Shown piece after piece: positions 3,621-49,530 of a stretch of 64,000 nt of DNA (position 1 is the stretch's first letter; the number at the start of each line of letters is the position of its first letter). The translations under genes were made by a program, and so were the position numbers. This DNA is from Squalus acanthias (Eukaryota), in the NCBI GenBank assembly GCA_030390025.1, contig CM059431.1, positions 101,868,001-101,932,000 of the forward strand. Direction: 5' to 3'. The notes under the pieces are model-generated. The model saw only the letters and a program-made list of their open reading frames with translations. It searched no databases and was not told where the DNA came from.

Positions 3621-4619
3621 TTGAACTTTGTGGTGTGATAGACATAGCTCAGATTTAGCACCGCCACATTTTCACAGCAGACTCCTAAGTAAGATGGAGT
3701 AACACACTTATCATTATAAAATAGTTGGAATCCAACTGACAGTGGGCAGCGCCAACTGCGAGTATAATATAAATATATACTTTGTAGCTAGGTCTATCTC
3801 TGTAACCTCCTCCAGACCCACAACCCTCCGAGTTCTCTGCGCTCCTCTGATTCTGGCCTCTTGTCCATCCCCAATTTTCATCGCTCCACCATTGACGGCC
3901 GTGCCTTCAGCTGCCTGGGCCCTGGAACTCCCTCCCTAAACCTCTCCACCTCTCTCCCCTCCTTTAAGACGCTCCTTAAAACCTTCCCTCTTTGACCAAG
4001 CTCTCGGTCACCCGTCCTTTTGCGGCTTGACCTCAAATTTTGGGACGTTTTGCCACGTTAAAGGCGCAATATACATGAAAGTAGTTGTTGTCTTAAGGTA
4101 ACCGCTGGCCAGCGATGAACTGCATTGCACAGGAACTAGCCTTTGAAGTCTACACCTGGGAGACTCCTTTCATCCACGAGTTAGCGTGAAATAATTACCT
4201 GTCGTTTCCAAAGGCATTCAGATTGCAGTGCATTTGAACATAAGAATTAGGGGCAGGAGTCGGCCATTCGGCCCCTCGAGCCTGCTCCGCCATTCAATAA
4301 CATCATGGCTGATCTGATCTTGGCCTCAACTCCACTTTCCCGCCCGCTCCCCATAACCGTCGACTCCCCTGTAGCTCAAATATCTGTCCTCCGCCTTGAA
4401 TATATTCAGTGACTCCACCTCCACAGCTCTCTGGGGAAGAGAATTCCAGAGATTTCCCGACCCTCTGAGAGAAGAAATTCCTCCTCATCTCCGCCTTAAA
4501 TGGGCGACCCCCTTATCCTGAGACTGTGCCCCCCTTTAGATCAGTGATTTTGTGAGGAACTTGTAACATCTATCTTTGGTGGAATGTTTCTGATTAAAAT
4601 TATGTTGCATCTTCCTTAG

Positions 4620-4810
4620 CTATGCACTACTTTCCCTATGTGAAGAAGCGCATTCCTGTCATGTACCAACAGCATGTCGATCTGAACCCTATTGAGGTTG
4701 CAATCGATGAAATGAGCAATAAAGTCACAGAACTCCAAATATTGTGCTCGTCTTCTGACGTTGATATGATCAAGTTACAGCTGAAACTCCAGGGCAGTGT
4801 CATTGTACAG
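4620..4810 (+). CDS. DOCK9: DOCK9 (zizimin1) coding exon, DHR-2 GEF domain
   Basis: ttccttAG|C acceptor and CAG|GTGATT donor; encodes [63 protein letters not shown], recognisable DOCK-D subfamily DHR-2 sequence. Confidence 0.95.
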
Positions 4811-5699: not shown

Positions 5700-8600
5700 A
5701 TATATATGTATAATATATTAGATATTAGAGAGATATGGCGATATTAGAGAGATATAGATATATTTAGAGAGATATGGGTATTAGAGATATGGATATATTT
5801 AGAGATATATTAAAGAGATATGGATATATTTAGAGATATATTAGAGAGATGGATATATTTAGAGATACATTAGAGAGATATGGATATATTTAGAGATACA
5901 TTAGAGAGATATGGATATATTTAGAGAGATATGGGTATTAGAGATATGGATATATTTAGAGAGATATTATAGAGATATGGATATATTTAGAGATATATTA
6001 AAGAGATATGGATATATTTAGAGATACATTAGAGAGATATGGATATATTTAGAGAGATATGGGTATTAGAGATATGGATATACTTAGAGAGATATAGAGA
6101 TATGGATATATTTAGAGATACATTAGAGAGATATGGATATATTTAGAGATATATTAAAGAGATATGGATATATTTAGAGATACGTTAGAGAGATATGGAT
6201 ATATTTAGAGATATATTAGAGAGATATGGATATATTTAGAGATATATTAAAGCGATATGGATATATTTAGAGATACATTAGAGAGATATGGATATATTAG
6301 AGAGATATGAATATATTTAGAGAGATGGGTATTAGAGATATGGATATATTTAGAGATACATTAGAGAGATACGGATATATTTAGAGATATATTAGAGAGA
6401 TGGATATATTTAGAGATACATTAGAGAGATGGATATATTTAGAGATACATTAGAGAGATATGGATATATTTAGAGAGATATGGGTATTAGAGATATGGAT
6501 ATATTTAGAGAGATATTATAGAGATATGGATATATTTAGAGATATATTAAAGAGATATGGATATATTTAGAGATATATTAGCGAGATATGGATATATTTA
6601 GAGATATATTAGAGCGATATGGATATATTTAGAGAGATATGGGTATTAGAGATATGGATATATTTAGAGAGATATAGAGATATGGATATATTTAGAGATA
6701 TATTAAAGAGATATGGATATATTTAGAGATATATTAGAGAGATATGGATATATTTAGAGATATATTAAAGAGATATGGATATATTTAGAGATATATTAGA
6801 GAGATATGGATATATTTAGAGATATATTAGAGAGATATGGATATATTTAGAGAAGAGAGATATGGATATATTTAGAGAGATGGATATTAGAGATATGGAT
6901 ATATTTAGAGATACCACTAGAGAGATATGGATATATTTAGAGATATATTAGAGAGAATGGATATATTAGAGATATATTAGAGAGATATGGATATATTTAG
7001 AGATACATTAGAGAGATATGGATATATTTAGAGAGATATGGGTATTAGAGATATGGATATATTTAGAGAGATATGGGTATTAGAGATATGGATATATTTA
7101 GAGATATTAAAGAGATATGGATATATTTAGAGATAATTAGAAGAGATATGGATATATTTAGAGATATATTAGAGAGATGGATATATTTAGAGATATATTA
7201 GAGAGATATGGATATATTTAGAGATATATTAAAGCGATATGGATATATTTAGAGATACATTAGAGAGATATGGATATATTAGAGAGATATGAATATATTT
7301 AGAGAGATGGGTATTAGAGATATGGATATATTTAGAGATACATTAGAGAGATACGGATATATTTAGAGATATATTAGAGAGATGGATATATTTAGAGATA
7401 CATTAGAGAGATGGATATATTTAGAGATACATTAGAGAGATATGGATATATTTAGAGAGATATGGGTATTAGAGATATGGATATATTTAGAGAGATATTA
7501 TAGAGATATGGATATATTTAGAGATACATTAGAGAGATATGGATATATTTAGAGAGATATGGGTATTAGAGATATGGATATATTTAGAGAGATATTATAG
7601 AGATATGGATATATTTAGAGATATATTAAAGAGATATGGATATATTTAGAGATATATTAGCGAGATATGGATATATTTAGAGATATATTAGAGCGATATG
7701 GATATATTTAGAGAGATATGGGTATTAGAGATATGGATATATTTAGAGAGATATAGAGATATGGATATATTTAGAGATATATTAAAGAGATATGGATATA
7801 TTTAGAGATATATTAAAGAGATATGGATATATTTAGAGATATATTAAAGAGATATGGATATATTTAGAGATATATTAGAGAGATAGGGATATATTTAGAG
7901 ATATATTAGAGAGATATGGATATATTTAGAGAGATATGGGTATTAGAGATATGGATATATTTAGAGAGATATAGAGATATGGATATATTTAGAGATATAT
8001 TAAAGAGATATGGATATATTTAGAGATATATTAAAGAGATATGGATATATTTAGAGATATATTAGAGAGATAGGGATATATTTAGAGATATATTAAAGAG
8101 ATATGGATATATTTAGAGATATATTAAAGAGATATGGATATATTTAGAGAGATATTATAGAGATATGGATATATTTAGAGATATATTAAAGAGATATGGA
8201 TATATTTAGAGATATATTAGCGAGATATGGATATATTTAGAGATATATTAGAGAGATATGGATATATTTAGAGAGATATGGTATTAGAGATATGGATATA
8301 TTTAGAGAGATATAGAGATATGGATATATTTAGAGATATATTAAAGAGATAGGGATATATTTAGAGATATATTAAAGAGATATGGATATATTTAGAGATA
8401 TATTAGAGAGATATGGATATAGTTAGAGATATATTAGAGAGATATGGATATATTTAGAGAGATATGGGTATTAGAGATATGGATATATTTAGAGATATAT
8501 TAAAGAGATATGGATATATTTAGAGATATATTAGAGAGATAGGGATATATTTAGAGATATATTAAAGAGATATGGATATATTTAGAGATATATTAAAGAG

Positions 8601-9215
8601 ATATGGATATATTTAGAGATATATTAGAGAGATATGGATATATTTAGAGATATATTAGAGAGATATGGATATATTTAGAGATATATTAGAGAGATATGGA
8701 TATAGTTAGAGATATATTAAAGAGATATGGATATATTTAGAGATATATTAGAGAGATATGGATATATTTAGAGATATGGATATATTTAGAGATATATTAG
8801 AGAGATATGGATATAGTTAGAGATACATTAGAGAGATGTGGATATATTTAGAGATACATTAGAGAGATATGGATATATTAGAGAGATATTAGAGAGATAT
8901 GGATATATTTAGAGATATATTAAAGAGATATGGATATATTTAGAGATATATTAGAGAGATATGGATATATTTAGAGATATTAGAGAGATATGGATATATT
9001 TAGAGATGCATTAGAGAGATATGGATATATTTAGAGATACATTAGAGAGATATGGATATATTAGAGAGATATGGATATATTTAGAGAGATATATTAGAGA
9101 GATATGGATATATTAGAGAGATATATTAGAGATATGGATATATTACAGAGATATATTAGAGAGATATGGATATATTTAGAGAGATATGGATATAGAGAGA
9201 TATATTAGATATCTA
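5700..9215. repeat. About 3.5-kb minisatellite, unit about 31 bp, GGATATATTTAGAGATATATTAGAGAGATAT
   Basis: Directly visible tandem array in a DOCK9 intron; + strand almost devoid of C. Confidence 0.98.
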
Positions 9216-9348
9216 TATATCTCTATCTTGAGAGGTAATTATAAATGGTATACATGGATGATTTATCTTGTGAAAATGGCCCACTTTGTGTTGCAGTAAT
9301 TGCAGTCAGACAGTAATGAGCGCAATGCTTGTTTGCTTATTCCGTTAG

Positions 9349-9449
9349 GTAAATGCTGGGCCATTGGCGTACGCACGGGCTTTCCTCGAGGAAGCCAATG
9401 TGAAAAAGTATCCCGACAACAAAGTGAAACAACTGAAGGAAGTCTTCAG
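9349..9449 (+). CDS. DOCK9: DOCK9 coding exon (DHR-2, VNAGP nucleotide-sensor region)
   Basis: ccgttAG|GTA...[44 protein letters not shown](R); phase-compatible with both flanking exons. Confidence 0.95.
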
Positions 9450-9578
9450 GTAAGGCCGGCATTTCGGAGCTGTTATGATGGAAGAGGACGAGACGTGGTT
9501 TTAGGTTTCACAGTACAAAAAATGTCGGGACCTGCTGCCGATCGGTCTGCGTCAATGGGTTGCTTTCTGTGTTCACAG

Positions 9579-9717
9579 GCAGTTTGTTGAGGCTTGTGGG
9601 CAAGCCTTGATCGTAAACGAACGTTTGATCAAGGAAGATCAGGTAGAATACCAAGAGGAAATGAAGGCAAACTACAGAGAAATGGTTCGCGAGCTGTCCG
9701 ACATCATGCGTGAGCAG
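9579..9717 (+). CDS. DOCK9: DOCK9 coding exon
   Basis: ttcacAG|G...GAGCAG|GTGAGT after a 129-nt intron; [46 protein letters not shown]. Confidence 0.95.
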
Positions 9718-9840
9718 GTGAGTTTAGGTTCTAAACCAGGTTTGAAACACCTACAGGATCATAGAATAGAACAGCACAGAAGGAGGCCATTCGGCCCATC
9801 GAGTCTGCGCCGCCTCTTTCGAAAAGCTCTCCAATTAGTC

Positions 9841-9997
9841 CCACACCCCACATCCCCTCCCCCGCACCCCCCCTCCCCGCACCCCCACTTCCCCCCTACT
9901 CCACACATCCCCTCCCCCACATCCCCTCCCCCCCCACATCCCCTCCCCCCGCACCCCCTCCCACACACCTCCCCTCCCCCACACACCCCCCTCCCCC
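9841..9997. repeat. C-rich degenerate tandem repeat
   Basis: CCCCCACATCCCCT-like units inside a CR1 3' UTR remnant. Confidence 0.9.
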
Positions 9998-10099
9998 ACA
10001 GCTCCTTCCCCAAATCCCTGCAATCTTTTCCTCCTTCAAGTATTTATCCAATTCCCATTCGAAAGCTACTATTGAACCTGTTAGGAGTTGCAAATATGA

Positions 10100-10710
10100 A
10101 TTCACCTCTGATTGTCTTACTGCAATTATATAGGGCCCTGGTGAGACCACACCTAGAGTATTGTGTACAGTTTTGGTCTCCTTACCTAAGGAAGGATATA
10201 CATGTCAGAGAGGGAGTGCAACGAAGGTTCACCAGACTGATTCCTGGGATGGGGGGATTGTCCTATGAGGACAGATTGAGTAGACTGGGCCTATATTCTC
10301 TAGAGTTTAGAAGAATGAGAGGTGATCTCATTGAAACATACAAAATCCTTACAGGGCTTGACAGGGTAGATGCAGGGAGGATGTTTCCCCTGGCTGGGGA
10401 GTCTAGAACCAGGGGTCACAGTCTCAGAATAAGGGGTCGGCCATTTAGGATTGAGATGAGGAGACATTTCTTCACTCAGAGGGTGGTGAATCTTTGGAAT
10501 TCTCTACCCCAGAGGGCTGTGGATGCTCAGTCGTTGAGTATATTCAAGACAGAGATCGATAGATTTTTGAATATTAAGGGAATCAAGGGATATGGGGTTA
10601 GTGCAGGAAAGTGGAGTTGAGGTAGAAGATCAGCCATGATCTTATTGAATGGCGGAGCAGGCTCGAAGGGCCAAATGGCCGACTCCTGCTCCTATTTCTT
10701 ATGTTCTTAT
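10100..10710 (+). mobile_element. CR1-type LINE 3' fragment
   Basis: [19 protein letters not shown]...AGKWS plus 3' UTR ending TTCTTATGTTCTTAT. Confidence 0.9.
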
Positions 10711-11110
10711 TGCAATGTATGATGAGAACAGAGTCGGTATTTACATTCTGAGTGGAAAGGGAATATTGTTTCCACTACATCAACTATCCAAATGGAGTTC
10801 TTCGATATATATTTTACAAAAAACTTCAAGAATAAGCAGACCATATTCCAAACGGATTTTGTTATGGTTGATTTTGTTTCTTCTGCAAATTGCCCTTAGG
10901 CAGCCCAACATCCCCAACCCAATTCTGAATGAAATGGGCAGTCCCTCTGTAGCAATAACTTCTGATGGGTCATTTGGGAATATAATTTAGTGAAAATATT
11001 TGAGGGGGTCGGTGCGAGTATTGACATTGAGTAAAACATGTCCCATGACGACCTTTTGTATTCCTAGCGGGAATATCTTTTTTTGCACAGCGTATTTACT
11101 TTATTCAAAA

Positions 11111-11578
11111 AAGAATGTCTTGCATTGATATAGCGCCTTTCATGACCACCGGACGTCTCAAAGCGCTTTACAGCCAATGAGGTGCTTTTTGAAATGTAGT
11201 CACTGTTGTAATGTGGGAAACGCGGCAGCCAATTTGCGCACAGCAAGCTCCCACAAAGTGCAATGTGATAACGACCAGATAATCTGTTTTTGTTATGTTG
11301 GTTGAGGGATAAATATTGGCCAGGACACCGGGGAGAACTCCCCTGCTCTTCTTCGAAATCGTGCCGTGGGATTTTTTACGTCCACCTGAGAGAGTAGACG
11401 GGGCCTCGGTTTAATGTCTCACCCGAAAGACAGCACCTCCGACACTGCGGCACTCCCTCAGCACTGGCACTGGGAGTGTCAGCCTAGCTTTTTGTGCGCA
11501 AGTCCCTGGAGTGGGACTTGAACCCACAACCTTCTGACTCAGAGGCGAGTGTGCGACCCACTGAGCCACAACTGACAC
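11111..11578 (-). mobile_element. Full-length Deu-domain SINE
   Basis: Reverse complement of the 42342-42800 family. Confidence 0.85.
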
Positions 11579-11882
11579 CAAAGCATGTTGTTTTAAATTC
11601 TAAATTAGAATGACTAAGGATTAAGTTCTTGATTGTAAGAAGACGCTAAGGGACATTGTTGGGACTTACTGGGCTAGGTCATAAAATAGGAGTACATCAG
11701 TGTACACAAGCCCATCAACGGCCGAAAATTAGATGTCTTCATCACGCATTCATTCAGCTTCCACCTGCAGGTAGAATATGTGCCTCCTCCTGTCAACCAT
11801 ACGGCGCAGAAGGAGGCCATTCGGCCCATCGTGCCTGTGCCGGCTCTTTGGAAAAGCTCTCCAATCAGTCCCGCCCCACAGC

Positions 11883-12039
11883 CAATGTTCTCTTTAATTT
11901 TTCTTTTGGGGTGCGCGGCCCCTTTAATGGGCTGCGCGAACCTTAAAATTTCCGCGCGTGCGCAGTTTTTCCCACAGTGAAGCCGGCAAGCGGCCTGCGC
12001 GAGACGTCCATACAGCCGCTCAGCTTAACGGGAACATTG
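11883..12039. mobile_element. Small TIR element (possibly hAT-type MITE)
   Basis: CAATGTTCTCTTTAA / TTAACGGGAACATTG inverted termini; TSD not clean. Confidence 0.5.
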
Positions 12040-12545
12040 CCCGCGGGTTGTCCCTGCACCTTTTTCCTTTGGTTTTAAAAGTAAACAGGTGGGGCTATTG
12101 AGAGCAGTTGTCAGACGTACCTGTCGTTCTTAGGAACTCGTTTTCCGACAAAGAAATCCCTCTGTCTTCCAACCAGCCAGGTTTGGAGATTGTCCATGCA
12201 AATTCAGGCAAAGTGCGATATGCCGGATCAGTATTTCCGTGTGTCCTGATCCGAGACCATGATCTGTCTTGGTCCTTACTGTATGCAGGTAGATTAGTGT
12301 GTTTCAGCAGCACCTTCTCATTTTATTAGGGGTTCAGATTCCCTTGCCTTGTGTTCTTTGCTTTTGAGAACATGTGGACATTCCTGGGGACAGCGGCCAC
12401 AGGACAAACTGGGACCCAGAATAAACCTGGCTCGGTGTGCTTTGCAAATTAGTTGCTACCTGGCAAGATGCCTCATAATTCTAGTGCGCAAAGGAAATAA
12501 AAACTATTTGATTTTAACACAGAGGTAAGTATCTTCAAACACATA

Positions 12546-13968
12546 GGTCCTGAAATTGCGCGAAACCCAGAAGTTGCGATCTGTCGAGGTCGCCTTGACA
12601 GATCCACCGAGCCGAAAGTAAAATCGCTTTCGCCGGCGTGGAGCTGGGTTATTTGTCCAGCAACTGCCCACGAAACTCTTACAGCCGGTAAAAGCAGGTG
12701 CAGGGCCTGCTTTCATCAGCGTAAGGGTTAATATAAATTAAACATTTAAAAATTAAAAATAATACACAAATACTTTGGGCTGGATTTTACCAGCCCTTTG
12801 GAGGCGGGACTGCTGGGGAAAAACCCCCAAAAAACCCGCCTCCAACCAATCTTCCCAGGAGTCGGGTCCCCGATTGGCGCAGGGACCCGACTCCTAGCGG
12901 CGGGAAGAGGATTATAGCCACTTAACTGTCTGTTAACAGGTAGTTAAGAGGCTTTTTCCAATTTTTCGACTATTGCTGCGGGCTTCCCGACGTCGGGGAA
13001 CCCCGCCAGGGTAAGTGAGGCGTGCTGTGGGTCTGTTGTTATCTTGGTGTTTGGATGACAGCTTCATAAGTGGTGTGAAGGATGCAGTTGGACACTGGTT
13101 AGTATCAGAGGTAAGGATATGTTGTGAAAGTCATTTTTAATGTGGTTAGATCTTTCTGCAGGTGACAAGCTGTGAAGTGTTTGTGTAGCCTCATCTCATC
13201 GGGAGAAGTGACAGATGGCTTCTTCAATCTCAGATGCTGCTGCCACCTGTTTTATCCTAAGGCGAGAGTAATTGGAGAGCCTGAGTGCAAGGCTCACCTT
13301 TAGACAGTGATTGTCAGTGATTGACAGCTCCTCAATGCTGTCAAACACTGTGAAATCATCTGTCAAACAAGTGTGGTGCATATGCCTTTAAGAAAACTGG
13401 CAGATGAAGCAGGGCGGGCTTAACAAGGCCAATCAGGGCAAAATAGCGTCTGTTCGTCAGACGTCACTGGGGGTGGGACGAGAACCCGGAAGGCAGTAGT
13501 CCCGCCCCCAACGTGTCTCGGTGAGTAAAACCCAGCCCTTAAAATTAGTTTATGCAAATTTGGCCCGGATTAAGATGTTTAAAATTATTTTTCAAAAATT
13601 TAATTTTTTTATCGTGTTTGGTGTAATGAAGGGACTAATGAATAAAATTGAAATTCAGAACATTTATAATTATTAGAATTGTGTAAATTGTTTAACTGTT
13701 TGAGGATTCCATTGCATGTCGTTAGGGGATTCTGTTCGGGAAATGACTGCAATAGAATCTTCCCGTGCGATTGGGGGGACCGGGCCCACGTGATCGCAGG
13801 GACGCTCGCGAACCACCAGCGTCCCTGGGATCCGTGGGCCTCTACGCAGGCGTGCGCCTGGAGGGCCCGAGTCCGCAACGCTCCGCAGCCCAGAGGCAAG
13901 TTCGGAAAATGTTCTGCGGGTCGGAGGCGAACTCCAGAGGCACGCCTCCGACCCGCAATTTCTAGGCC
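12546..13968. mobile_element. Non-autonomous PIF/Harbinger-like element containing a nested element
   Basis: Imperfect TIRs GGTCCTGAAATTGCG / CGCAATTTCTAGGCC; 13780-13968 is reverse-complementary to 57288-57460. Confidence 0.7.
12777..13538. mobile_element. Nested non-autonomous TIR element
   Basis: TIRs GGGCTGGATTTTAC / GTAAAACCCAGCCC (13 of 14 match), inserted in the AT-rich centre of 12546-13968. Confidence 0.7.
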
Positions 13969-14744
13969 ATGTGGTTTAACAAATTATTTTTTTTGCTTGT
14001 TTGACTGAAACACTGTCCCGGGCTTCCAGATTTGAGCCTCTCGAGTCGTAGTTTCGGGTGAAAGAAGAAAGTCGTTTCCCGATACGCTCTGCGCATCTCT
14101 CTGATTGAGATCTGGCCAAAATTATGAATAATTGCTGTGGGAGAACTGGTCGTTTACTCCTAAAAATGTTAACTTTACTCAAGCACGAGTGATCTTCAAA
14201 CAAGCTAGCCAACCCAACTCTTATCAACCTGTCCCGGTTCATTGAGCGACCTTCCGATGTTTTTCCTGTACCGTGACATTGCCCTTCTTTTAGTCTCAGT
14301 TGCTTCAGTCCTTTATACCAAAGATTGCCGTGTTCCATTTTGCCAAATGATCATTTAGAAGTAAAAGCAGAAAATGCTGCCAATACCCAGCAGGTCGGGG
14401 CAGCTTCTGCGAAGAGAGTGAACTCATTTGGAAGTCTTTGTGGAGATTTAAAACTGACCCTGAAAAGAGAGAATACATGAATTCGAACGAGTTTAAAAGA
14501 GGAGTAATGGTAGGGAAAGTAACTTCTCTTTTTCCCGATCTGCCAAAATAGTTTTTCTCAAATGTTTATACTGTCTTGCTACCTGCGAGGACATGTCCTG
14601 CATTGTTAATGGGAAACCGGCCTGCTGGACACCTGCCATATTGACCTGCCCTGTCCGATAAAATACTCGTTCACTTGTGTGTGTGGCAGCTCCACCTGTG
14701 AGCGTCTCATTGGAGTAGATTTTCAGCTTGCCAGCCCGACGCTG

Positions 14745-15293
14745 TGTATCGGCACTCCTGGCCGGCCTCCCACCTACCACCCTCCCTAAACTTGAGGTCA
14801 TCCAAAACTCGGCTGCCCCGTGTCCTAACTCGCACCAAGTCCCGATCACGCATCACCCCTGTGCTCGCTGACCTACATTGGCTCCCAGTTAAGCAGCGCC
14901 TCGATTTCAAAATTCTCATCCTTGTTTTGAAATCCTCCGTGGCCTCGCCCCTCCCTATCTCTGTAATCTCCTCCAGCCCCACAATCGTCCGAGATCTCTG
15001 CGCTCCTCTAATTCTGGCCTCTTGCACATCCTCCATTTCCATCGCTCCGCCATTGGCGGCCGTACCTTCAGCCCCCTCGGCCCCGAGCTCTGGAATTCCC
15101 TCCCTAAACCGCTCCGCCTCTCTTTCCTCCTTTAAGACGCTCCTTAAAACCTACCTCTTTGACCAAGCTTTTGGTCACCTGTCCTGATACCTCCTTATGT
15201 AGCTCAGTGTCAAATTTTGTTTTATAACGCTCCTGTGAAGCGCCTTGTGACGTTTTACTACGTTAAAGGCGCTATATATATGTAGGTGGTTGT
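14745..15293 (+). mobile_element. L2-type LINE 3' fragment
   Basis: ITPVLADLHWLPVKQRLDFKIL motif and L2 tail. Confidence 0.9.
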
Positions 15294-15744
15294 TCTAGAA
15301 TCCGTCCGATTTCCATTCGAATCAATAGACCTAAAAACCGGGCATTTTCTCTATCGAGCAGCCTATCGGCAGTGGCAATTATGCTGCTGGGTGGTGAGTT
15401 GAAAGATGTCAGTGCTGGCCCTGAATGGCGACCTCTGCACTCCTTTGAAAGTAATGACTTGAGAGTTGAGTACAGAGTGGTACTGAACTGTTAACTGTGC
15501 TGGAGGGAAGGCTTTGGCAGACTAGAGAAAATGTCACTCTCGCTGCTCCACATTATGAGAGCCTCTGGCTCGAATCCAGGTCTTGTAGATTACCAGCAGC
15601 ATGTCCTGTAGCTCTAAAATCTGGAATTTCCCCTCTCAGCTGGGAGGTAGAAACAAATTTCCCAACAACATTGATGAGGACAGCACATTATTTTTGAAAC
15701 ATTTCTCCATCACCTCTTTTTGAGTCCTTTGTTAGATTTACATA

Positions 15745-16187
15745 GAATTCCACACAGCAGAAACAGGCCATTCGGCCCAACTGGTCCGTGCCGGTGTTTC
15801 TGCTCCACACGAGCCTCCTCCCACCCCTCTTCATCTCACCCTGTCAGCATATCCTTCTATTCCTTTCTCCCTCATATGTTTATCTAGCTTCCCCTTAAAT
15901 GCATCTATACTATTCACCTCAACCACTCCCTGTGGTAGTGAGTTCCACATTCTCACCACTCTCTGGGTAAAGAAGTTTCTCCTGAATTCCCTATTGGATT
16001 TATTAGTGACTGTCTTATATTGATGGCCCCTAGTTCTGGTCTCCCCCACAAGAACATCTCTCTACGTCTATCCTATCGAACCCCTTCATAATTTTAAAGA
16101 CCTCCATCAGGTCACCCCTCAGCCTTCTCCTTTCTAGAGAGAAGAGCCCCAGCCTGTTCAATCTTTCCTGATAGTTATAACCCCTCA
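15745..16187 (-). mobile_element. CR1-type LINE 3' fragment
   Basis: YQERLNRLGLFSLERRRLRGDL...WNSLPQG. Confidence 0.88.
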
Positions 16188-16789
16188 GTTGTAAATCTAT
16201 ATGTATATATATATATATATGTAGCAAATTGCCACATTCAACCATGCCATGCCCTCGCACCGCTGGTATGGACCCGGCACCTTCCCACAGCCAGAAAGGC
16301 CAAGTCACCTGAAACCGTTCACATACATTTTCTAATAACTAGCAATGACAGAAGCCAATGGCCTACCCACACTCTCCATCCGAGATAGGGATTGTATTTG
16401 GCATTTGAATATCTAGAGTGAAGGAAGAGAGAGACTTTAGACACAAAAAAAAGAAAATCTTCAATTTTTTTTACATATTGATGCCAATCGTCCCATCAAA
16501 GTGTAGTAAGTAACTCCTTTTGTGTGTGTATTTCCCAATTCTTTTAGTTTTGCACTTAGGTGTCTTTGGTAGACAAAATTTTGATATTCACTATATGGTC
16601 AAAAATTTACTTTTTAAAAAGTAATAATGTTTAGTTATGATTTTTTCTTGTAATGAACTTTAAGAGAAGAACATTTTGTATTGTACCATTTTGGGTATTG
16701 TACCTTTTAGGGAAGGAAATCTGCCGTCCTTACCCGGTCTGGCCTATATGTGACTTCAGACCCACAGCAATGTGGTTGACTCTTAACTG

Positions 16790-17630
16790 GGAAGACCGAA
16801 GCCATTTTTTTCGGTCCCCGCCACAAACTCTGTTCCCGAGCCACTGACTCCATCCCTCTCCCTAGCAACTGTCTGAGGCTGAACCACACTGTTCGCAACC
16901 TTGGTGTCATATTTGACCCTGAAATGAGCTTCTGACCACATATCCGCAGCATAACTAAGACCGCCTGTTTCAACCTCCGTAACATCGCCTGTCTCCGCCC
17001 TTGCCTCAGCTCATCCGCTGCTGAAACCCTCATCCATGCCTTTGTTACCTCTAGACTTGACTATTCCAATGCACTCCTGGCTGGCCTCCCACATTCCACC
17101 CTACGTAAACATGAGGTCATCCAAAACTTCGGCTGCCCGTGTCCTAACTCGCACCAAGTCCCGTTCGCCCATCACCCCTGTGCTCGCTGACCTACATTGG
17201 CTCCCGGTTGAGCAACGCCTCGATTTCAAAATTCTCATCCTTGTTTTCAAATCCCTCCATGGCCTCGCCCTTCCTATCTCTGTAATCTCCTCCAGCCCCA
17301 CAACCCCCTGAGATATCTGCACTCCTCTAATTCTGGCCTCTTGAGCATCCCTGATTATAATCGTTCAACCATTGGTGGCCGTGCCTTCTGTTGCCTAGGC
17401 CCTAAACTCTGGAATTCCCTGCCTAAACCTCTCCACCTCGCTACATCTCTTTCCTCCTTTAAGACGCTCCTTAAAACCTACCTCTTTGACCAAACTTTTG
17501 GTCACCTGCCCTAAGTTCTCCCTATATGGCTCGGTGTCAAATTGTTTTGTCTTATAATACTCCTGTGAAGCGCCTTGAGAAGTTCTACTACGTTAAAGGC
17601 GCTATATAAATACAAATTGTTGTTGTTGTT
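16790..17630 (+). mobile_element. L2-type LINE fragment inserted into a SINE
   Basis: VRNLGVIFD...LHWLPV..WNSLP, (TTG)n tail, duplicated CTTAACTG at 16782-16789 and 17634-17641; host SINE halves at 16706-16789 and 17634-17780. Confidence 0.9.
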
Positions 17631-18051
17631 GACCTTAACTGCCCTCTGAAACGGTCTAGCAAGCCACTCAGTTGTATTCAAGAAGGCAGCTCACCACCAC
17701 CTTCTCGAGGGCAATTAGGGATGGGCAATAAATGCTGGCCTTGCCAGCGACGCCCACATCCCATGAACAAATAAAAAAAAGTACCATTTTGAAATAATAG
17801 TGCTCTATGTATCTATCTAGCAATTTAAGGATGCCTAAAACATGCAGGTACATTGTATTAAGTAGATTCCTTTAGATGAGATGTATTAATTCTTAATTCT
17901 ACATTGTTAACATAACTGCAGCCAATCTTTCCAATTTCATTAGAGGTTTGTGGGGCAGACTTCATTTTTCTGAACCTTCGCTTAAGTTTTTGATGCTACC
18001 CATTGCCAAGTGTGATGTGATCATGGCTGTCCTAGTTGGACATTTCAATGC

Positions 18052-18540
18052 AAAAGCAAAACACAGCGGATGCTGGAAATCTGAAATAACAATGCTGGAA
18101 ACACTCAGCCGGCCAGGCAGCATCTGCAGAGAGAGAAGTGGAGTTAACGTTTCAGGTCGATGACCTTTCGTCAGAACTGGAAAAAGTTGGAGATGTAACA
18201 GGTTTTTAAGCAAGTGCAGGGGCTGGGAGAGAGGGGGGAGGGGAGGAAAGAACAAAAGGGAAGGTCTGTGACAGGGTGGAAGGCAGGAACGATTAAATGA
18301 CAAAAGGGATGATGGTGCGAGGCAAAAGGAGATGGTAATGGGACAAGTAAAGAAACAAAAGATGGGTCTAGAGGAGGTGTAAATGGGAATGGCAGCATCA
18401 TCAGCAGCTGCCGTCCGAATAAATGTGGGTAGAGGTTATGATCTGAAATTGTTGAACTCAATGTTGAGTCCGGAAGGCTGTAAAGTACCTAATCGAAAGA
18501 TGAGGTGCTGTTCCTTGAGCTTCGTTGGAACAGTGTAGGA
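18052..18540 (-). mobile_element. Penelope-like 3' fragment (same family as 28701-29170)
   Basis: Near-collinear with 28701-29170; encodes the end of the endonuclease (KLKEQHLIFRLGTLQPSGLNIEFNNFRS). Confidence 0.85.
18142..18178 (-). ncRNA. Minimal type I hammerhead ribozyme motif (second family)
   Basis: Minus strand agtt-CTGACGA-a-aggtc-atc-gacct-GAAA-cg-TT-aact; AACGTT palindrome. Confidence 0.78.
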
Positions 18541-18708
18541 AGCAATCGGTTATCTAGGAATTTAGGCGTTTGAAACCCAAATTGTAGAATTACCTGTATC
18601 TCAAGAATATAAAATTGCAGAGTGAGGCGGCATGTGCAAATGAAAACTAACCAGTGTATTTTCTCATTTTCTTTTTCTCTGAATGCTTCCCTCACGTAAT
18701 GTGAGCAG

Positions 18709-18716
18709 ATTGGATG
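18709..18716 (+). CDS. DOCK9: Candidate 8-nt alternative microexon of DOCK9 (ATTGGATG); inclusion gives ...EQIG-stop
   Basis: CAG|ATTGGATG|GTAATA with an upstream pyrimidine tract at about 18658-18680; its final TG plus the first A of the terminal exon forms TGA; parallels the mammalian DOCK9 isoform ending EQLG (from recall). Confidence 0.7.
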
Positions 18717-18938
18717 GTAATATTACTGTTGTAAAATCTGGAAAGTGCATGACGTCAGTGTGTGTGTGCAGCATACTGGAAGTTAACTTGAACCGCAATC
18801 TATAATTTTGAGTTGTGCTTTTAAGAAAAAGTTGTGCAAACGAAACAAATTGCCTGTGGCTTACTAAAGCATTTGTGAAAATACCCTCCTAGGCTGTGGT
18901 TGGTTTTTGCTTTTTTAATGGTGTGTTTTCTTGTTAAG

Positions 18939-19067
18939 ATTTCACCAGAGGACGACGGAATGAAGATCAATCTCCTGCCCAACTCATATCACATCTTCAA
19001 TGCAATCAGTGGAACTCCACCTGGGACAGCCGTTCATGGCATCCCTAACTCCTCCTCCGTGGTCTAA
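18939..19067 (+). CDS. DOCK9: DOCK9 terminal coding exon
   Basis: ttgttAAG|ATT acceptor; ISPEDDGMKINLLPNSYHIFNAISGTPPGTAVHGIPNSSSVV-TAA; the LPNS.HIFNAISGTP...SSSVV C-terminus is characteristic of DOCK9. Confidence 0.93.
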   Translation: MSPEDDGMKINLLPNSYHIFNAISGTPPGTAVHGIPNSSSVV

Positions 19068-20490
19068 AAGTTAACGGGTGGAAGGTTATCATCGGCATAC
19101 CAAATTTTATTCCTGCATGTATTCACTCAGGACACTTTCAAGACTCTCAAAATGGGATGCGGGAAGAGTTCAAACTAAGTCATGACACTCGAGATGTGAC
19201 GCTAGCTAGGTCATGGAGCCAAAGGAAATCACGTTTGCACATTTGAGCTCTGCTCCGGGGAATGCATTTTGAATTTTAAAGGTTCTCGGAGAAGCTTCGC
19301 TAGTCTGCATTTTACTGTACAGTTTTTAGAATTCAGTGGTGGAAATGGTTCCATTGCTTTGCTATAAAAACCTATCTTAAAGTATAGACTTTGTAAGTTT
19401 AATATATTGGAGGAAAAAAAACAGGGAAATAATGTTAGCGTCAATATTTTTGCTGTCTGTTTACACGTATCTATTACCTGTACATAATTGTTAAAAGATG
19501 ACAAAATGAGGTGGCATAAGGAAGGTATATTTCAGATAGGATATATGGTCAAGTACAACGGAGCAGCCAAGTTTGAAATTGTAGTTTTCATTTAATTAAA
19601 AAAACATTAAGGGTTGAGCATAATAGATTCTGTACTGGGTCCATGGGTACCCGTTTATATGATGCAGGACAGCACTGCACTGATGCATTCCCTCTGGATA
19701 AAATTCAAATGCAGTCGTCTTGCGTTTCATGTGAAAACACTTAATGCATGTAGCTTCGTCATTTGCCCCCCATCCTGGACATGGCCCTGGTAATGACGGT
19801 GGTGTTCGGTCACCCCCTGTGCACTAAGGATCCTGAATGTAAAAGGCATTTGTAATTATTCAAGTGTACAGTAGTTATCTGTGCTGGGGCAGTCTGGTCA
19901 CCAAGTGCGTGTAGCTTTCTGTACACACTCGAGTTTGTAGTACAGTATTTTCATGTAATGTAATGTTGAATAATTTAGAAGTTTCACCGGAGACCAGCTT
20001 TCTGTCAGTGAGGGAAAGCTGGACCGGGGCAGCTTGCCTTCTCCCTCCTGCAACACATACAGTATATTTTACAAATGTGCTTTGTTAATACTCTTGTACA
20101 TAATTGAGTGCAATATTCATCACTAAGCATTATCCCAGATGTATAGTCTTTGTTACATTTTGATTTATTAAATGTTACATAGCAAATCTCCTTTTTTGCC
20201 AAAGTGACAGGATATGATCAGCAATCATTTTTACTGTGTTTATTTTTTTTTTTGGCTTTAACTTAAATCCTTTTCCTGTCGGATTTGTTTTTGAAAACAG
20301 TAAATGAAATTTTATATTTGGGGAAAGTCGAGGTTTTTAATTTTATTTAAACTGGAACTGTTGTCCTGCTGTATGTAAATTTAAATTTGTTCTGTTGTAC
20401 AACTGTAATAATAAGTTCAGCTTCTCTGCAGTTTCATTTTGTATATGTGTGACCTCAGGCCCTGTCCAATAAAAGTAGGTTTCAAACTTT
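19068..20490 (+). other. DOCK9: DOCK9 3' UTR
   Basis: AT-rich stretch with no recognisable transposon, between the stop codon and AATAAA; the 3' end is approximate. Confidence 0.7.
20468..20473 (+). terminator. DOCK9: Polyadenylation signal of DOCK9
   Basis: AATAAA preceded by multiple TGTA motifs and followed by a GT/T-rich downstream element (about 20500-20530). Confidence 0.75.
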
Positions 20491-20764
20491 TCTAACTTCA
20501 GTGTTTACAGTTTGGGTGTTTTCAGTTTCATTTCTGCGTTCGTTCATTGTTTCATTAACATTGAAAATGCTTTTGGAGGAATTCTGGCCTCCTGATGGTG
20601 AGGTTAATGCTGGGAATGGGGTGTCCATGCTCCCGTGGACTGCATTAAGCATTTCTAGCATGGATCCAACAATAGGTGCTTAAAAAAAAAAATTGTAAAC
20701 GGTGAGCGACTGCGGAGGAACAGAGAGATTTGGACGTCCAGGTACACTAAAAGCTAGTGCACGT

Positions 20765-21245
20765 GAACAGAAAGATTGACAAGGATGATACCAGAACTGA
20801 GAGGTTATACGCATCAGGTAAGCTGGGGCTCTCTTCTCTCGAAAAGAGAAGGCTGAGGGGTGACCTGTTAAAGGTCTTGAAGAGTATGAAGGGATTTGAT
20901 AGGGTATACGTAGAGCAGATGTTTCCACTTGAGATGGAATCCAAAACTAGGGGCCGTAAATATAAGATAGTCACCAATTAGATCCAATAGGGTCTGCAAG
21001 GGAAACAACTTCACCCAGAGAGAGCGGTGAGAATGTGGAACTCGCTACCACAGGGAGTGGTTGAGGTGAATAGCATAGATGCATTTAGGGAAAAGCTAGA
21101 TAAACACATGAGGGAGAAAGGAATAGAAGGATATGCTGATGGAGTGAGATGAAGAGGGGTGGGAGGAGGCTCATGTGGAGCATAAACACCGATATAGACC
21201 AGTTGGGCCAAATGGCCTGTTTCTGTGCTGTACATTCTATGAACA
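20765..21245 (+). mobile_element. CR1-type LINE 3' fragment
   Basis: LGLSSLEKRRLRGDL..KGFDRV remnant and 3' UTR. Confidence 0.85.
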
Positions 21246-22050
21246 AATACAATGTAATCAAAAAAAGGCTAGTGGAATGTTGGCCTTTATCTCCAGGGGG
21301 TTGGAATTCAGTTGTGAGGAAGGGATGCTTCAGTTGTACGGCCAGTGAATGATGGTGAGGAGGCTGGGTATGCCATTGGATGCCATTTGCAGTTGGGAAG
21401 CCTGGAAGACCAGTTGATGTTGGGTTGTGCATAGAGACTGAGCAAGGTGGGTCATCAGGAGGGGATGGGCAGATCAGCCATGCTCTAATTGAATGGCATA
21501 GCAGGCTCGAGGGGCTGAATGGCCTCCTCCTGTTCGTAGATCTGGGTCAAGCAGAGCATCGAGGCTGAGCAGGTTGGGATTTCGCCACACTTGGGAGAGG
21601 AGAGAAAAAATAATTTCAAAGTGCTACAATCAACTTAAAAATAGGATAAAAATAAATAAAATCAATTTTAAAAAGGTGGGGGGAAATTGGATAAATACTT
21701 GAAGGGGAAAAATTTGCAGGACTGCGGGGAAAGAGCAGGGAGGGTGACACTAATTGGAAAGCTCTTTCAAAGAGCCGGCACAGACACGATGGGCCAAATG
21801 GTCTCCTGTGCTGTACGATTCTATGATGTGCAGCGTAACAATTTTTTTTTTAAGTGGCTGCCTTATGTGTTTTTCATCCGTACAGATACAAAGCTTTTAA
21901 TAATACGGATTTTGATGTGGTGTTCGTAGTACGATACAGTTTTCCTCAGTAACAAAGGAACTCCGTGGCTGAAGGTTATTTTTTTCCCCAAAGTATTACC
22001 TTTAACACCAGCCTTGTAACTGATAATGGTTTGATGTATTTGGACACCAT

Positions 22051-22943
22051 GGGGTAAAAATTCAGTTGGTTGCGCCTCCCGTTAGCGCCTTAAGAGGGCG
22101 CTAATGGGCCGCAAAGCCGCTAACGCCCGGGCGCAGCGATGTTTGTGCCGCTCGGGAACTTAACTAGAGATTGTGCGGCGGCGCTAAACTTTACCGCTGC
22201 GACCACCTGCGCGCGCAGATTGTGACGTCATTCCATGGTGCAACGCCCTTGTGGCGCCCCGGAGCGGAAATTGAGTGGCGCCCCCTGCCTTACCGCCTGG
22301 CGCATCCAACGACCAGAAGACTGGAACGCTATCAATCGCTGTGGGGCTGGGGGGGGCGCTATTTAAAGGGGGCCTCTTCCTGCCTTTTATTGTTGGTGGC
22401 ATTTTTGAACTACGCATTCTGAGAGAGAGAGGGAGAGACTTCTGGAGAGATTCAACGTTGTGTGAAGGAGTTTTGGGTACTGAGCAGCACTTTGCAGGTT
22501 CATTTTGATTTGCCATTCCTTGTATCGATTTAGCAGAGACTGTGGGAGCTGCACTCTGAGCTCTTTGCCTGGTACTCTCCATTGTTCTTTCCAGCACATT
22601 TGATGTGCAAGTCTCTCCAGGCCGAGATTCAAGGCTGCAATGAACAGGATGTGGATGGAAAGCAAGATTAACCATCCCCTTTAAGAACTGGCCCGTGCCA
22701 TTGTGTGTGTGTTCCATTGCTGACTGACATTACATGAGCTTCGCCAGCGCTCTGAGTTAGCGCCTCACTCCTTGGCCTTTGCGCCTTAAGACAGGTGTGC
22801 AGCGCCTGATTTAGCGCTCCACTCACCTCCCGGGGCGGTAAAAGTGAAGTTTCCAGTCAGTGGCGATAATTAGCGCCAGGCGCTAATATTTGCGTCCAGA
22901 CGATATTTGCGCCCCAAATGGGGCGCGACCTAATTTTTCCCCC
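22051..22943. mobile_element. Non-autonomous TIR element with (TA)GCGCC-rich ends
   Basis: GGGGTAAAAATT / AATTTTTCCCCC termini; a homologous partial copy lies at 49531-49880. Confidence 0.65.
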
Positions 22944-23187
22944 AATGTGTACAACCTTTTTTTTTATCAAACCCTGTCAAGCACAATGCACCGTTCTGGT
23001 CTCCATATTACAGAAAGGATATAGAAACACTGCAGAAGGTGCAAGAAAGATTGACAAGGATGATAACCAGAACTGAGAGGTTACAACCATCAGGAAAGGC
23101 TGAACAGGTTGGGGCTCTTTACTCTAGAAAAGAGAAAAATGAGAAGTCGCACAACACCAGGTTATAGTCCAACAGATTTATTTAATT

Positions 23188-23226
23188 TTACAAGCTTTCG
23201 GAGCGGTTCGCTCCTTCCTCAGGTAA
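23188..23226 (-). ncRNA. Minimal type I hammerhead ribozyme motif
   Basis: Exact reverse-complement copy of 24371-24409. Confidence 0.8.
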
Positions 23227-24370
23227 GTTAGCAGTGAGAGAATCTCCCAGAATTCACAATTTAAACACAGACAAAATCTATTCAAATCTTTCCCTACATC
23301 AAAGACACACTAAGAGCACAGCCCAGACAATGAGATGTGTCCCAGGGGGTCCAACGTGTCAAACCACCTGCTGGCTGCATATCCTGTCAATTTGTGTTGG
23401 TTCTTGTGTTAGTCTTTTTTTAAAAAAAACACCTGGGAAGACCGGCCATGATGTCAAGTCACGTTCTGTATCGTGACATGAACCCGATATCGCGATTGAG
23501 GCCATCCTCATGAGTGCGGAACTTGGCTATCAGTTTCTGCTCTATGATTTTGCGCTGTCGTGTATCCCGAAGGCCGCCTTGGAGAACGCTTACCCGCAGA
23601 TCCGAGGCTGAATGCCCCTGGCTGCTGAAGTGTTCCCCGACTGGGAGGCAACCCTCCTGCCTGACGAGCAGATTACCCATCTTTCAGGAGAACAGCAACC
23701 AAGACACCACACAACCCTGCCACGGCAACCTCTGCAAGACATGCCAAATCATGGACACAGATACCATCATCACACGTGAGGACACTACCCACCAGGTACA
23801 CGGTACATACTCATGTGACTCGGCCAACATTGTCTACCTGATACGTTGCAGTAAAGGATGCTCCAGAGCATGGTACATCGGCGAGACCATGCAGACACTG
23901 AGACAACGTATGAACGGACACCGCGCAACAATCGCCAGGCAGGAGGGTTGCCTCCCAGTCGGGGAACACTTCAGCAGCCAGGGGCATTCAGCCTCAGATC
24001 TGCGGGTAAGCGTTCTCCAAGGCGGCCTTCGGGATACATGACAGCGCAAAATCATAGAGCAGAAACTGATAGCCAAGTTCCGCACTCATGAGGATGGCCT
24101 CAATCGCGATATCGGGTTCATGTCACGATACAGAACGTGACTTGACATCATGGCCGGTCTTCCCAGGTGTTTTTTTTTAAAAGACTAACACAAGAACCAA
24201 CACAAATTGACAGGATATGCAGCCAGCAGGTGGTTTGACACGTTGGACCCCCTGGGACACATCTCATTGTCTGGGCTGTGCTCTTAGTGTGTCTTTGATG
24301 TAGGGAAAGATTTGAATAGATTTTGTCTGTGTTTAAATTATGAATTCGGGGAGATTCTCTCACTGCTAAC

Positions 24371-31492: not shown

Positions 31493-34400
31493 TTAGGAGG
31501 TGTGGACGAGACGGTGCGGCGGTCTGATGGGCCGGCCGGAGCGGCTCTTGTAGGACGCCGGTGGACGTGGAATGGCCGGGCGTGGAGCAGCCGGGTGAAC
31601 CGGCTTGAGGGCAGGTCGGCCGCGTGGAGGTGGACGAGCTATAGGGACCTGCTCACCGGGCTCCGAGTGTGCTGGCTTGAGTCGGTCAACCGACACTTTT
31701 TCGGTCCTGTCGCCCACTTGCAGGGTGAAAAATTTGTCCCCAGCCTGTAGCACCTTGTAGGGCCCGTCGTACGGGGGTTGAAGGGGTCCGCGGTGGGCGT
31801 CGTGCCGGACGAAAACAAACCGTGCCTGGTGCAGGCTTAGTGGGACGTGTGAGGTGGATTCGCCGTGTCGGGCAATGGGCACCGGGGCGAACTGCAGCGC
31901 CGGTGAGGCGAAGTCGTGGCGTTGCTGGTCGGCTGACCAGGGTGTCGTGGCGGTGGGCAGGAACTCGCCGGGTACGCGCAGCGGCTGACCGTACACGAGC
32001 TCTGCTGCCGATGCGTGGAGGTCTTCTTTAACCGCGGTGCGCAGGCCGAGGAGGACCCACGGAAGTCGGTCGGTCCAGGCGCCGTCTTGGAGGCTGGCTC
32101 GAAGAGATGCCTTCAAGGATCTGTGGAACCGCTCACACAGTCCGTTGGCTTGGGGGTGGTACGCTGTGGTGCGGTGAATGGTCACCCTGAGATTACGTGC
32201 GACAGCGGTCCAGAGTTCAGAGGTAAATTGCGGACCTCTGTCCGATGTCATGTCGGAGGGGACGTGAACTGTGCGACCCAGGTGCTGACGAAGGCTCTGG
32301 CGATGTCGGCGGTGGTGGTAGAGGTCAGTGGAATTGCCTCAGGCCAGCGTGTGGTGCGGTCAACGATGGTCAGCAAGTGCGTGTGGCCTTGCGACGGCGG
32401 CAGGGGCCCGACGATGTCCACGTGGATGTGGTCGAATCTCCGTGAGGGGACGGTAAACTCCTCGAGGGGTGCTTTCGTGTGTTGCTGTACCTTGGCCCAT
32501 TGGCAGGCTAGGCAGGAGTTGGCCCAAGTATGCACATCCTTGCGAAGGCCGCGCCAGACAAAGCGGTCGGCTACCAATTTGATGGATGCGCGGGCGCCGG
32601 GGTGGGAGAGGTTGTGGAGAATGTCGAATACCCGGCGGCGCCAGGACGCTGGGACGACGGGCCGAGGTTGACATAGGGATATGTCGCACTTGACCGTGAC
32701 TGCGGTCGGGCCACAGGCGACGTCGGCCAGGCGTAGCCCTAGTAGGTTGGTGGGTGCGGAGAGCAGATCAGGGTCGGTGATCTGGTCTGCTGCGAGTTGA
32801 GCGTAGTCGACTGCTAGGCGTGCGGCGTGGATGGCGGGGCGGGAGAGGCAGTCGGCTACCACATTGTCTCGGCTGGAGACGTGTTGGATGTCCGTGGTGA
32901 ACTCGGACACTGCCGCGAGCTGGCGCTGCTGCCTGGCGGACCAGGGGTCGGTTGTCTTTGCCATTGCGAATGTCAGGGGCTTGTGGTCGACAAACGCAGT
33001 GAAGGGGTGGCCCTCAAGCAAAAACCGGAAATGGCGGACCGCCAGGAACAGCGCGAGGAGCTCGCGGTCGAAGGTGCTGTACTTGACCTCCGGGGGGCGT
33101 AGTTGGCGGCTGAAGAAGGCAAGTGGTTGCCAGGCGCCGTCGACCCACTGCTCATACACGGCGCCGACCGCGTGGTCGGAGGCGTCCGTGGTGAGCGCTA
33201 CCCTGGCATTGGGCCGTGGGTGCGCGAGCAGGGTGGCGTTGGCGAGCACGGTCTTGGTGGAATCGAAGGCGGTGGACGCATCTGCCGTCCATTCGACCGC
33301 CATCTTGCCGCTCCTGCCCCGGAGAGCTTCATACAGGGGCCTCATGAGGGACGCCGCTTTGGGGATGAAACGGTTATAGAAATTCACCATCCCGAGGAAC
33401 TCCTGGAGGCCTTTGATGGTGGTGGGGCGGGGAAATTGTTGGACGGCCTGCACCTTGGTGGGCAGGGGAATGGCCCCAGCATGGGTGATGTGGTGGCCGA
33501 GGAAGTCGATCTTGTCCAGGCCGAACTGGCATTTGGCTGGGCTGAGGATGAGCCCGTGGTCGCTGAGGCGCCCGAACAGGATGCGAAGGTGTTCGAGGTG
33601 TTCCTGCTTGGAGGAACTGGCTACCAGGATGTCGTCCAGGTAGACGAACAGGAACTTCAGGTCCCGAAGGACCGAGTCCATGAGCCGTTGGAATGCCTGG
33701 GCCGCGTTTTTGAGGCCGAAGGGCATCCGCAGGAACTCGAACAGGCCGAAGGGGGTGATTACGGCCGTCTTGGGGACGTCCGCGGGGTGGACGGGGACTT
33801 GGTGGTAGCCGCGCACCAGGTCGACCTTGGAAAAGACTGAGCGGCCGGCCAGTCTAGCCGAGAAGTCCTGAATGTGCGGCACGGGGTACCGATCAGGGGT
33901 GGTGGCGTCATTGAGGCGGCAGTAATCCCCGCAGGGGCGCCAACCTCCGCCTGGTTTGGGGGCGATGTGGAGTGGGGAGGCCCAGGGACTGTTGGAGCGG
34001 CGGATGATGCCGAGCTGTTCCATGGTGGCAAACTCGGTCCGCGCGATCTCCAGTTTGGCCGGGTCCAGCCTGCGGGCGTGGGCTTACATTGGGGGGCCTG
34101 TGGTGGGGATGAAGTGTTCCACCCCATGTTTGGCGGCCTCCGCGGAGAAGGTCGGATTGGTAAGGGCCGGGAATTCGGCCAGAAGTGCCGAGTAGTCATC
34201 CGTGGCCCGGGCGTGGCACTGTGACGCCATGTCGGCGGGTTGACGGGGGGCCATGGCGCCCAGGATGGGGGACATGGTGTTCATGTCCACGAGGCGGTGA
34301 CGAGGGATGTCTACCAGTAGGCCGTGGGTGCACAGGAAATCTGCGCCGATGAGGGGGGAGAGCACCTTGGCAGTGATGAACTCCCATCGGTAGCGGTGAC

Positions 34401-35290: not shown

Positions 35291-35330
35291 TGCAGTGCTC
35301 GGAATACGTTCTGAGCATCGGGGTCACCAA

Positions 35331-49522: not shown

Positions 49523-49530
49523 ACAGTCCA

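What the first reader, a model, noticed from the sequence alone, without database searches (positions are those of the whole stretch)
18640..18760. 8-nt poison-type microexon switching the DOCK9 C-terminus (PDZ-ligand on/off)
Seen: CAG|ATTGGATG|GTAATA lies 222 nt before the terminal exon. Inclusion gives ...MREQ-IG-TGA, with the stop formed across the junction, and removes the 42-aa tail ending SSVV (a class I PDZ-binding consensus). The flanks carry ACTAAC (18646, QKI/branch-like), a pyrimidine tract, TGC (18684, SRRM4-type enhancer position) and downstream TGCATG (18746, RBFOX). From recall, human DOCK9 has isoforms ending EQLG versus ...SSSSVV, which would make this switch as old as jawed vertebrates. 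The stop falls at the last junction, so NMD is not expected. Gene predictors would probably miss it.
Basis: partly seen in the sequence, partly recalled or inferred. Interest (0 to 1): 0.7.

Follow-up and report, generated by a model that had tools for sequence, protein, structure and literature searches.

The report
Ancient neural microexon trims DOCK9 tail
An eight-base optional piece of the DOCK9 gene, already listed as a nerve-cell splice event in mice, also sits in this shark and would end the protein just after its enzyme domain, but there is no evidence yet that the lost tail works as a PDZ-binding tag.

Summary
The 8-nt candidate exon (18709-18716) lies exactly as described in the last intron of shark DOCK9. 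Orthologs support it. A bird-like DOCK9 intron has a 15/16 match to the exon plus its splice sites (1 of 3000 shuffles). A published mouse table lists an annotated 8-nt exon differing by one base: neuronal cluster, included from E12.5-13.5, not differential in muscle or heart. Its zebrafish brain table lists the identical 8 nt. Human DOCK9 in PDB 2WM9 ends EQLG, and eagle, owl and marsupial isoforms end EQ(M/L)G. The gene names of the two table rows are inferred. Shark inclusion is not shown: three RNA-type contig sets, tissue unknown, show only skipping. The stop spans the last junction, so 'poison' is the wrong label; it is an alternative C-terminus. The PDZ reading is weak: 29 of 72 distinct tails end in Ala and no partner was found. 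The most constant part of the tail is an internal motif, SxHIFNAISGT. The RBFOX- and QKI-type motifs are not kept in the bird. Verdict: a real event already known in mouse, here extended to cartilaginous fish; the tail's function is untested.

The parts
9579..9717 (+). Last constitutive DHR2 (lobe C) exon of DOCK9, ends ...IMREQ, donor GTGAGT at 9718
   Evidence: sequence; 96% to whale shark DOCK9-like; best PDB hit DOCK9 2WM9, E 2.4e-20; loose ends equal the end of this exon
18646..18651 (+). ACTAAC, most likely the branch point region (TAAC kept in the bird at -47, ACTAAC not kept)
   Evidence: function inferred
18657..18693 (+). Polypyrimidine tract with a UGC at 18684 (-25); bird has a tract and UGCs at -22, -19, -15
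   Evidence: SRRM3/4 enhancer role inferred from PMC4387716 passages
18706..18708 (+). 3' splice site CAG; the last 8 nt before it (GTGAGCAG) equal the last 8 nt of the upstream exon
18709..18716 (+). 8-nt microexon ATTGGATG (Ile-Gly plus TG of the stop codon)
   Evidence: bird ATGGGATG; mouse ATGGGATG; zebrafish ATTGGATG; unchanged in related shark DNA run X12
18717..18722 (+). 5' splice site GTAATA (bird GTAATT)
18746..18751 (+). TGCATG (RBFOX-type), followed by a GU repeat near 18758-18768; kept in related shark X12, absent in the bird
18939..19067 (+). Coding part of the terminal exon: 42-aa tail with internal SYHIFNAISGT motif, ending SSVV; first base A completes the TGA on inclusion
19068..20490 (+). 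Probable 3' UTR; AATAAA at 20468 (end approximate)
   Evidence: (contigs unspliced to 19500)

Best explanation
A conserved neuronal cassette microexon in the last intron of DOCK9 that sets the C-terminus. Skipped (default): DHR2 is followed by a 40-42-aa, mostly disordered tail. Included (developing and adult nervous tissue): two residues (I/M/L-G) are added and a TGA forms across the last junction. The mRNA should escape NMD and give a GEF that ends right after an intact DHR2. Shown: anatomy, skipping in shark RNA contigs, conservation, neuronal inclusion of the mouse exon, short proteins in databases. Inferred: inclusion in shark brain; activation by SRRM3/4 through the upstream UGC; that the point of the switch is to delete a docking site in the tail, most likely the internal SxHIFNAISGT motif (about 0.5), changing partners or location rather than catalysis.
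For: Bird-like L002: same exon, splice sites, tract and UGCs, 480 nt before the terminal exon. Mouse row chr14_-_121544575_121544583: 8 nt, 'Annotated', coverage 1613, cluster Neuronal N1, differential in mid/hindbrain (E13.5) and forebrain (E12.5), FALSE for skeletal muscle, heart and adrenal (PMC7821500 suppl. file 2); the text says all changes in neuronal clusters are inclusions. Zebrafish brain row: identical ATTGGATG, 115 reads, in a transcript that also has a 6-nt Ala-Ala exon like the DOCK9 DHR2 insert. Proteins ending EQ-x-G: human 2WM9 and 4 of 341 fetched proteins. The short human form is the one crystallised with Cdc42. In a 44-sequence alignment S689 and H691-T699 are invariant while the last residue is not.
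Against: 3 of 3 shark RNA-type contig sets show skipping only (tissue unknown, contigs drop minor forms). Teleost-like L001 has no match in 1476 nt of intron, best 6 mismatches of 16. 0 of 30 cartilaginous-fish representatives end short. The mouse and zebrafish rows carry no gene name; identity rests on sequence match and, for mouse, recalled coordinates. Only one UGC lies within 50 nt in the shark, at -25. No binding partner for the tail motif was found.
Confidence: 0.85

Rival explanations
1. One reading: the switch removes a class I PDZ ligand (S-x-V) and so releases DOCK9 from a PDZ scaffold in neurons.
For: Ser at -2 is present in 72 of 72 distinct tails and the distance from the internal motif to the C-terminus is fixed (25 aa in 72 of 73); 43 of 72 fit [ST]-x-[VLI]. 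The shark tail ends SVV.
Against: 29 of 72 end in Ala (birds, reptiles, amphibians, coelacanth, lungfish, marsupials, monotremes). The Ser lies in a poly-Ser run. No DOCK9-PDZ report surfaced in the listings, and DOCK9 does not occur in the searchable supplements of a PDZ holdup study (one file cut).
Confidence: 0.2
2. The tail folds back on DHR2 or the dimer and damps GEF activity; inclusion removes this brake in neurons.
For: The tail follows the last DHR2 helix directly and carries an invariant hydrophobic motif, drawn as a short helix 690-697 in a low-confidence model.
Against: Tail pLDDT is about 30 in that model. Reported DOCK9 autoinhibition is ascribed to N-terminal domains (PMC10152721 passages).
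Confidence: 0.15
3. A true poison exon: inclusion lowers DOCK9 by NMD or mRNA destabilisation.
For: It is non-triplet and creates a stop.
Against: The stop spans the last junction and contigs run unspliced from 18937 to 19500. The short form is annotated in mouse, in three NCBI isoforms and underlies a human crystal construct.
Confidence: 0.06
4. The shark copy is vestigial or a chance look-alike and is never spliced in.
For: Skipping only in 3 of 3 contig sets; no short shark protein among 30 representatives.
Against: Identity with the zebrafish exon and 7 of 8 with bird and mouse. Exon, splice sites and motifs unchanged in a related shark: 1 change in 18620-18766 against 10 in 18767-18938, p 0.013, but p 0.24 against the whole rest and with boundaries chosen after the fact.
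Confidence: 0.08

Closest known systems
Mouse microexon chr14_-_121544575_121544583 (ENSMUST00000040700), PMC7821500 supplementary file 2
   Same: 8 nt, 7 of 8 bases identical, ends GGATG; annotated; neuronal cluster N1. Taken to be the Dock9 ortholog.
   Different: 950 nt before the next exon against 222 nt here; first codon Met against Ile. The row gives no gene name and the paper's text does not mention Dock9.
Zebrafish brain microexon chr6_-_12595898_12595906 (ENSDART00000156415), same paper, file 4
   Same: Identical 8 nt; 115 reads in brain.
   Different: 101 nt before the next exon; not paired with the mouse exon in the paper's 402-pair table. Gene identity inferred.
Human DOCK9 short C-terminus (PDB 2WM9 chain A, ends HEQLG)
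   Same: Two extra residues x-G after the last DHR2 helix, then stop.
   Different: Leu for Ile. The human genomic exon was not seen here.
SRRM3/4 (nSR100)-dependent neural microexons; the 6-nt DOCK9 microexon at chr13:99,461,376 (PMC8627023 table)
   Same: Under 27 nt, weak 5' splice site, upstream tract with UGC, neuronal inclusion, deep conservation.
   Different: Not frame-preserving; it deletes a tail and does not insert residues. The 6-nt exon is a separate, in-frame event.
Non-triplet splicing that gives alternative C-terminal isoforms (class described in C. elegans, PMC13247117)
   Same: Frame shift moves the stop without NMD; nervous-system regulation.
   Different: Here the stop is assembled from both sides of the junction; vertebrate gene, not covered in that paper (0 mentions).

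Membership tests
DOCK9 ortholog (DOCK-D) | Best similarity to DOCK9 rather than DOCK10/11 | tested here: met
   top named hits are DOCK9; DOCK9 73 bits, DOCK10 59 bits (no DOCK11 chain among the hits)
DOCK9 ortholog (DOCK-D) | SLC15A1-like neighbour downstream | tested here: met
   exons 44357-63188 match the PF00854 part of a fused teleost model; human synteny recalled
Neural microexon (SRRM3/4 type) | 3-27 nt with canonical splice sites | tested here: met
Neural microexon (SRRM3/4 type) | Conserved across vertebrates | tested here: met
   not found in teleost-like L001
Neural microexon (SRRM3/4 type) | Neural-enriched inclusion | tested here: inconclusive
   mouse row is neuronal; shark contigs of unknown tissue show skipping only
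Neural microexon (SRRM3/4 type) | UGC close upstream of the 3' splice site | tested here: met
   -25 in shark; -22, -19, -15 in bird; a 3-mer, so weak
Neural microexon (SRRM3/4 type) | Loss of inclusion on SRRM3/4 depletion | not testable with these tools
   no Dock9 entry in the searchable supplements of PMC4387716 (file 6 not searched)
Neural microexon (SRRM3/4 type) | Frame-preserving (typical, not required) | tested here: not met
   8 nt
Poison exon (AS-NMD) | Stop more than 50-55 nt upstream of a later exon junction | tested here: not met
   stop spans the last junction; no splice seen to 19500
Class I PDZ ligand | Ser/Thr at -2 | tested here: met
   72 of 72 tails
Class I PDZ ligand | Conserved Val/Leu/Ile at the last position | tested here: inconclusive
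   met in this shark; 43 of 72 tails overall, 29 end in Ala
Class I PDZ ligand | Measured binding to a PDZ domain | not testable with these tools
   no report found

The most novel reading that the evidence does not exclude
Since before sharks and bony fish split, neurons have used an 8-nt exon with a junction-built stop to strip DOCK9 of a tail whose invariant internal motif (SxHIFNAISGT) is an undescribed protein-docking site, so that neuronal and non-neuronal Cdc42 activation by DOCK9 differ in partner or location.
Probability: 0.4. Interest if true: 0.55.

Novelty: already known. Interest (0 to 1): 0.3.

Why it matters
The exon itself is catalogued in mouse, so this is not a new system. 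What this work adds is depth and a testable question. The exon, its reading frame and the junction-built stop appear to be shared from sharks to mammals, a pairing that a liftover-based mouse-zebrafish table missed. It also means that the standard DOCK9 crystal construct ends like the neuronal, tail-less form, so the 40-aa tail was absent from it. I found no study of that tail in the searches named. The conserved internal motif is a ready target for a pull-down.

Tried and rejected
No whole genome is held for the window. Cluster members could not be listed, so short isoforms hidden inside clusters were not counted. No listed sequencing holder is on record as RNA; X1, X4 and X5 are guessed RNA, and their spliced contigs fit that. 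The read lay used 4 of 16 listed runs and only 18545-19500, so the junction was read from loose ends. Teleost-like L001 gave no exon. AlphaFold model of the whale-shark C-terminal 715 aa was low-confidence (mean pLDDT 52). Complex prediction of tail with DHR2 gave no answer; it is not evidence either way. Rfam: 0 matches in 9000-24000. Paper searches showed no study of this exon or of the tail; 'microexons + shark + conserved + DOCK9' gave 0 papers. Supplement searches for Dock9 by name were empty in PMC7821500, PMC12626420 (1 file not searched), PMC12868881, PMC4387716 (1 file not searched) and PMC9482650 (1 file cut); PMC10987577 supplements and all bioRxiv supplements were unavailable and may list the event. 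VastDB could not be consulted. Earlier scan findings: nothing relevant. Rejected: that this is the known 6-nt DOCK9 microexon (different length, in frame); RBFOX and QKI as conserved regulators. The 100% columns for HIFNAISGT are circular because tails were selected on that motif; the claim rests.

Full report
Context. The window is repeat-rich shark DNA. It holds the last exons of DOCK9 on the + strand: 4619-4810 (approximate), 9349-9449, 9579-9717 and a terminal exon from 18939. The 46-aa translation of 9580-9717 is 96% identical to whale shark DOCK9-like and matches DOCK9 better than DOCK10 in the PDB. SLC15A1-like exons follow downstream.

Observation. The exon ATTGGATG spans 18709-18716 between CAG and GTAATA, 222 nt before the terminal exon. 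Inclusion reads E-Q-I-G-stop, with the TGA built across the junction. Skipping gives a 42-aa tail ending SSVV. Of 52 microexon-like candidates in the intron, this acceptor has the most pyrimidine-rich upstream sequence.

Shark RNA. I laid 4 of 16 listed runs on 18545-19500. Contigs of X1, X4 and X5 (RNA by guess, two studies, tissue unknown) all begin at 18937 with loose letters equal to the end of exon 9579-9717. This shows the gene structure and the skipped form in 3 of 3. No included form was seen; contigs drop minor variants, so this is not absence. X1 also has one unspliced fragment over 18556-18854. A related shark (X12, contiguous DNA-like contig) keeps the exon, both splice sites and all four motifs. 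It has 1 change in 18620-18766 against 10 in 18767-18938 (p 0.013), but p is 0.24 against the whole rest and I chose the boundaries afterwards.

Orthologs. A metagenome scan with the tail alignment returned 2 loci. L002 has a bird-type tail and, 480 nt upstream, CAG|ATGGGATG|GTAATT with CTTAAC, a pyrimidine tract and three UGCs. The 16-nt core matches at 15 positions; 1 of 3000 shuffles did as well. L001, teleost-type, has no match in its 1476 nt of intron: the exon is lost, diverged or further upstream there. In PMC7821500 (passages and supplement rows seen), mouse row 671 of file 2 is an annotated 8-nt ATGGGATG exon with coverage 1613, cluster Neuronal N1, differential in mid/hindbrain from E13.5 and forebrain from E12.5, and not in skeletal muscle, heart or adrenal. 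Zebrafish brain row 509 of file 4 is ATTGGATG, identical to the shark, with 115 reads. The same transcript has a 6-nt GCTGCG exon, which would encode the Ala-Ala seen in the DOCK9 DHR2 insert. Neither row names the gene. I found the mouse row from recalled Dock9 coordinates. The chance of a given 8-mer in the zebrafish table is at most 0.03. The two rows are not paired in the paper's 402-pair table.

Proteins. Of 341 fetched proteins, 4 end EQ-x-G: an unnamed mammal-like one, golden eagle X9, burrowing owl X8 and Dromiciops X16; 280 have the long tail, 55 other ends (mostly intron read-through) and 2 were not parsed. The third search was aimed at short ends, so this is no frequency. All four also carry the Ala-Ala insert. 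None of 30 representatives from 15 cartilaginous fishes is short; cluster members could not be listed.

How it works. Shown: skipping gives the long tail; the mouse exon is switched on in developing brain. From established knowledge: a stop at the last junction has no downstream junction complex, so NMD is not expected, and 'poison' is the wrong class. The short form keeps all of DHR2, since the 2WM9 construct was solved with Cdc42. Inferred: SRRM3/4 drive inclusion through the upstream UGC (motif described in PMC4387716 passages; not tested). TGCATG and ACTAAC are not kept in the bird, so RBFOX and QKI are at most lineage-specific, and ACTAAC is more simply the branch point.

What the tail does. 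The PDZ idea has some footing: Ser at -2 is constant and tail length after the internal motif is fixed. But 29 of 72 distinct tails end in Ala, across many tetrapod lineages, and I found no reported partner. The invariant part of the tail is internal, S689 and H691-T699 in a 44-sequence alignment. I rate a docking role for that motif at about 0.5, the PDZ ligand at 0.2 and fold-back inhibition at 0.15. The structure model was too poor to decide.

Comparison and verdict. It works like an SRRM-type neural microexon and belongs to the non-triplet, alternative C-terminus class (PMC13247117 passages). It is distinct from the 6-nt DOCK9 microexon (PMC8627023 table row) and the Nova2-regulated exon 37a/b event (PMC4633719 passages). 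Other papers seen: PMC7551865, first 10,000 characters, on first-exon isoforms only; PMC13663769, passages and section 5; PMC10152721, passages; PMC6419433, passages. Irimia 2014 and VastDB were not seen. The event is already catalogued in mouse; the shark copy and a study of the tail were not found in the searches listed. Interest 0.3.

Noticed in passing
window 18701-18708 and 9710-9717: The intron just before the microexon ends in the same 8 nt (GTGAGCAG) as the upstream exon, which can confuse read aligners; it also holds a GTGAG donor-like word. The bird has ATGATCAG there.
   Followed up: partly
window 44357-63188 (+): At least nine exon-like matches to an SLC15A1/PTR2-type peptide transporter, downstream of DOCK9.
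   Followed up: partly
window 5720-9185: 3.4-kb AT-rich satellite with a 31-bp unit (about 107 copies) inside a DOCK9 intron.
   Followed up: no
window 31493-35323 (-): Gag-pol-like ORFs in pieces (protease, RT, RNase H, integrase by eye) of a Ty3/Gypsy-type retrotransposon.
   Followed up: no
window 18556-18854: Run X1 has one unspliced fragment across the microexon, ending in adapter: pre-mRNA, intron retention or DNA.
   Followed up: no
window 18699: Related shark X12 has A>G here, creating an extra AG about 10 nt upstream of the microexon.
   Followed up: no
L001 905-925: An AG-TTGGAT-GTGAGG stretch in the teleost-like intron loosely resembles the exon but lacks a pyrimidine tract and the 8-nt register.
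   Followed up: partly
proteins P0150-P0158, P0165, P0168-P0170, P0184: Bowfin and several teleost DOCK9s read HEP-I in place of HEQ-I at the same junction.
   Followed up: no
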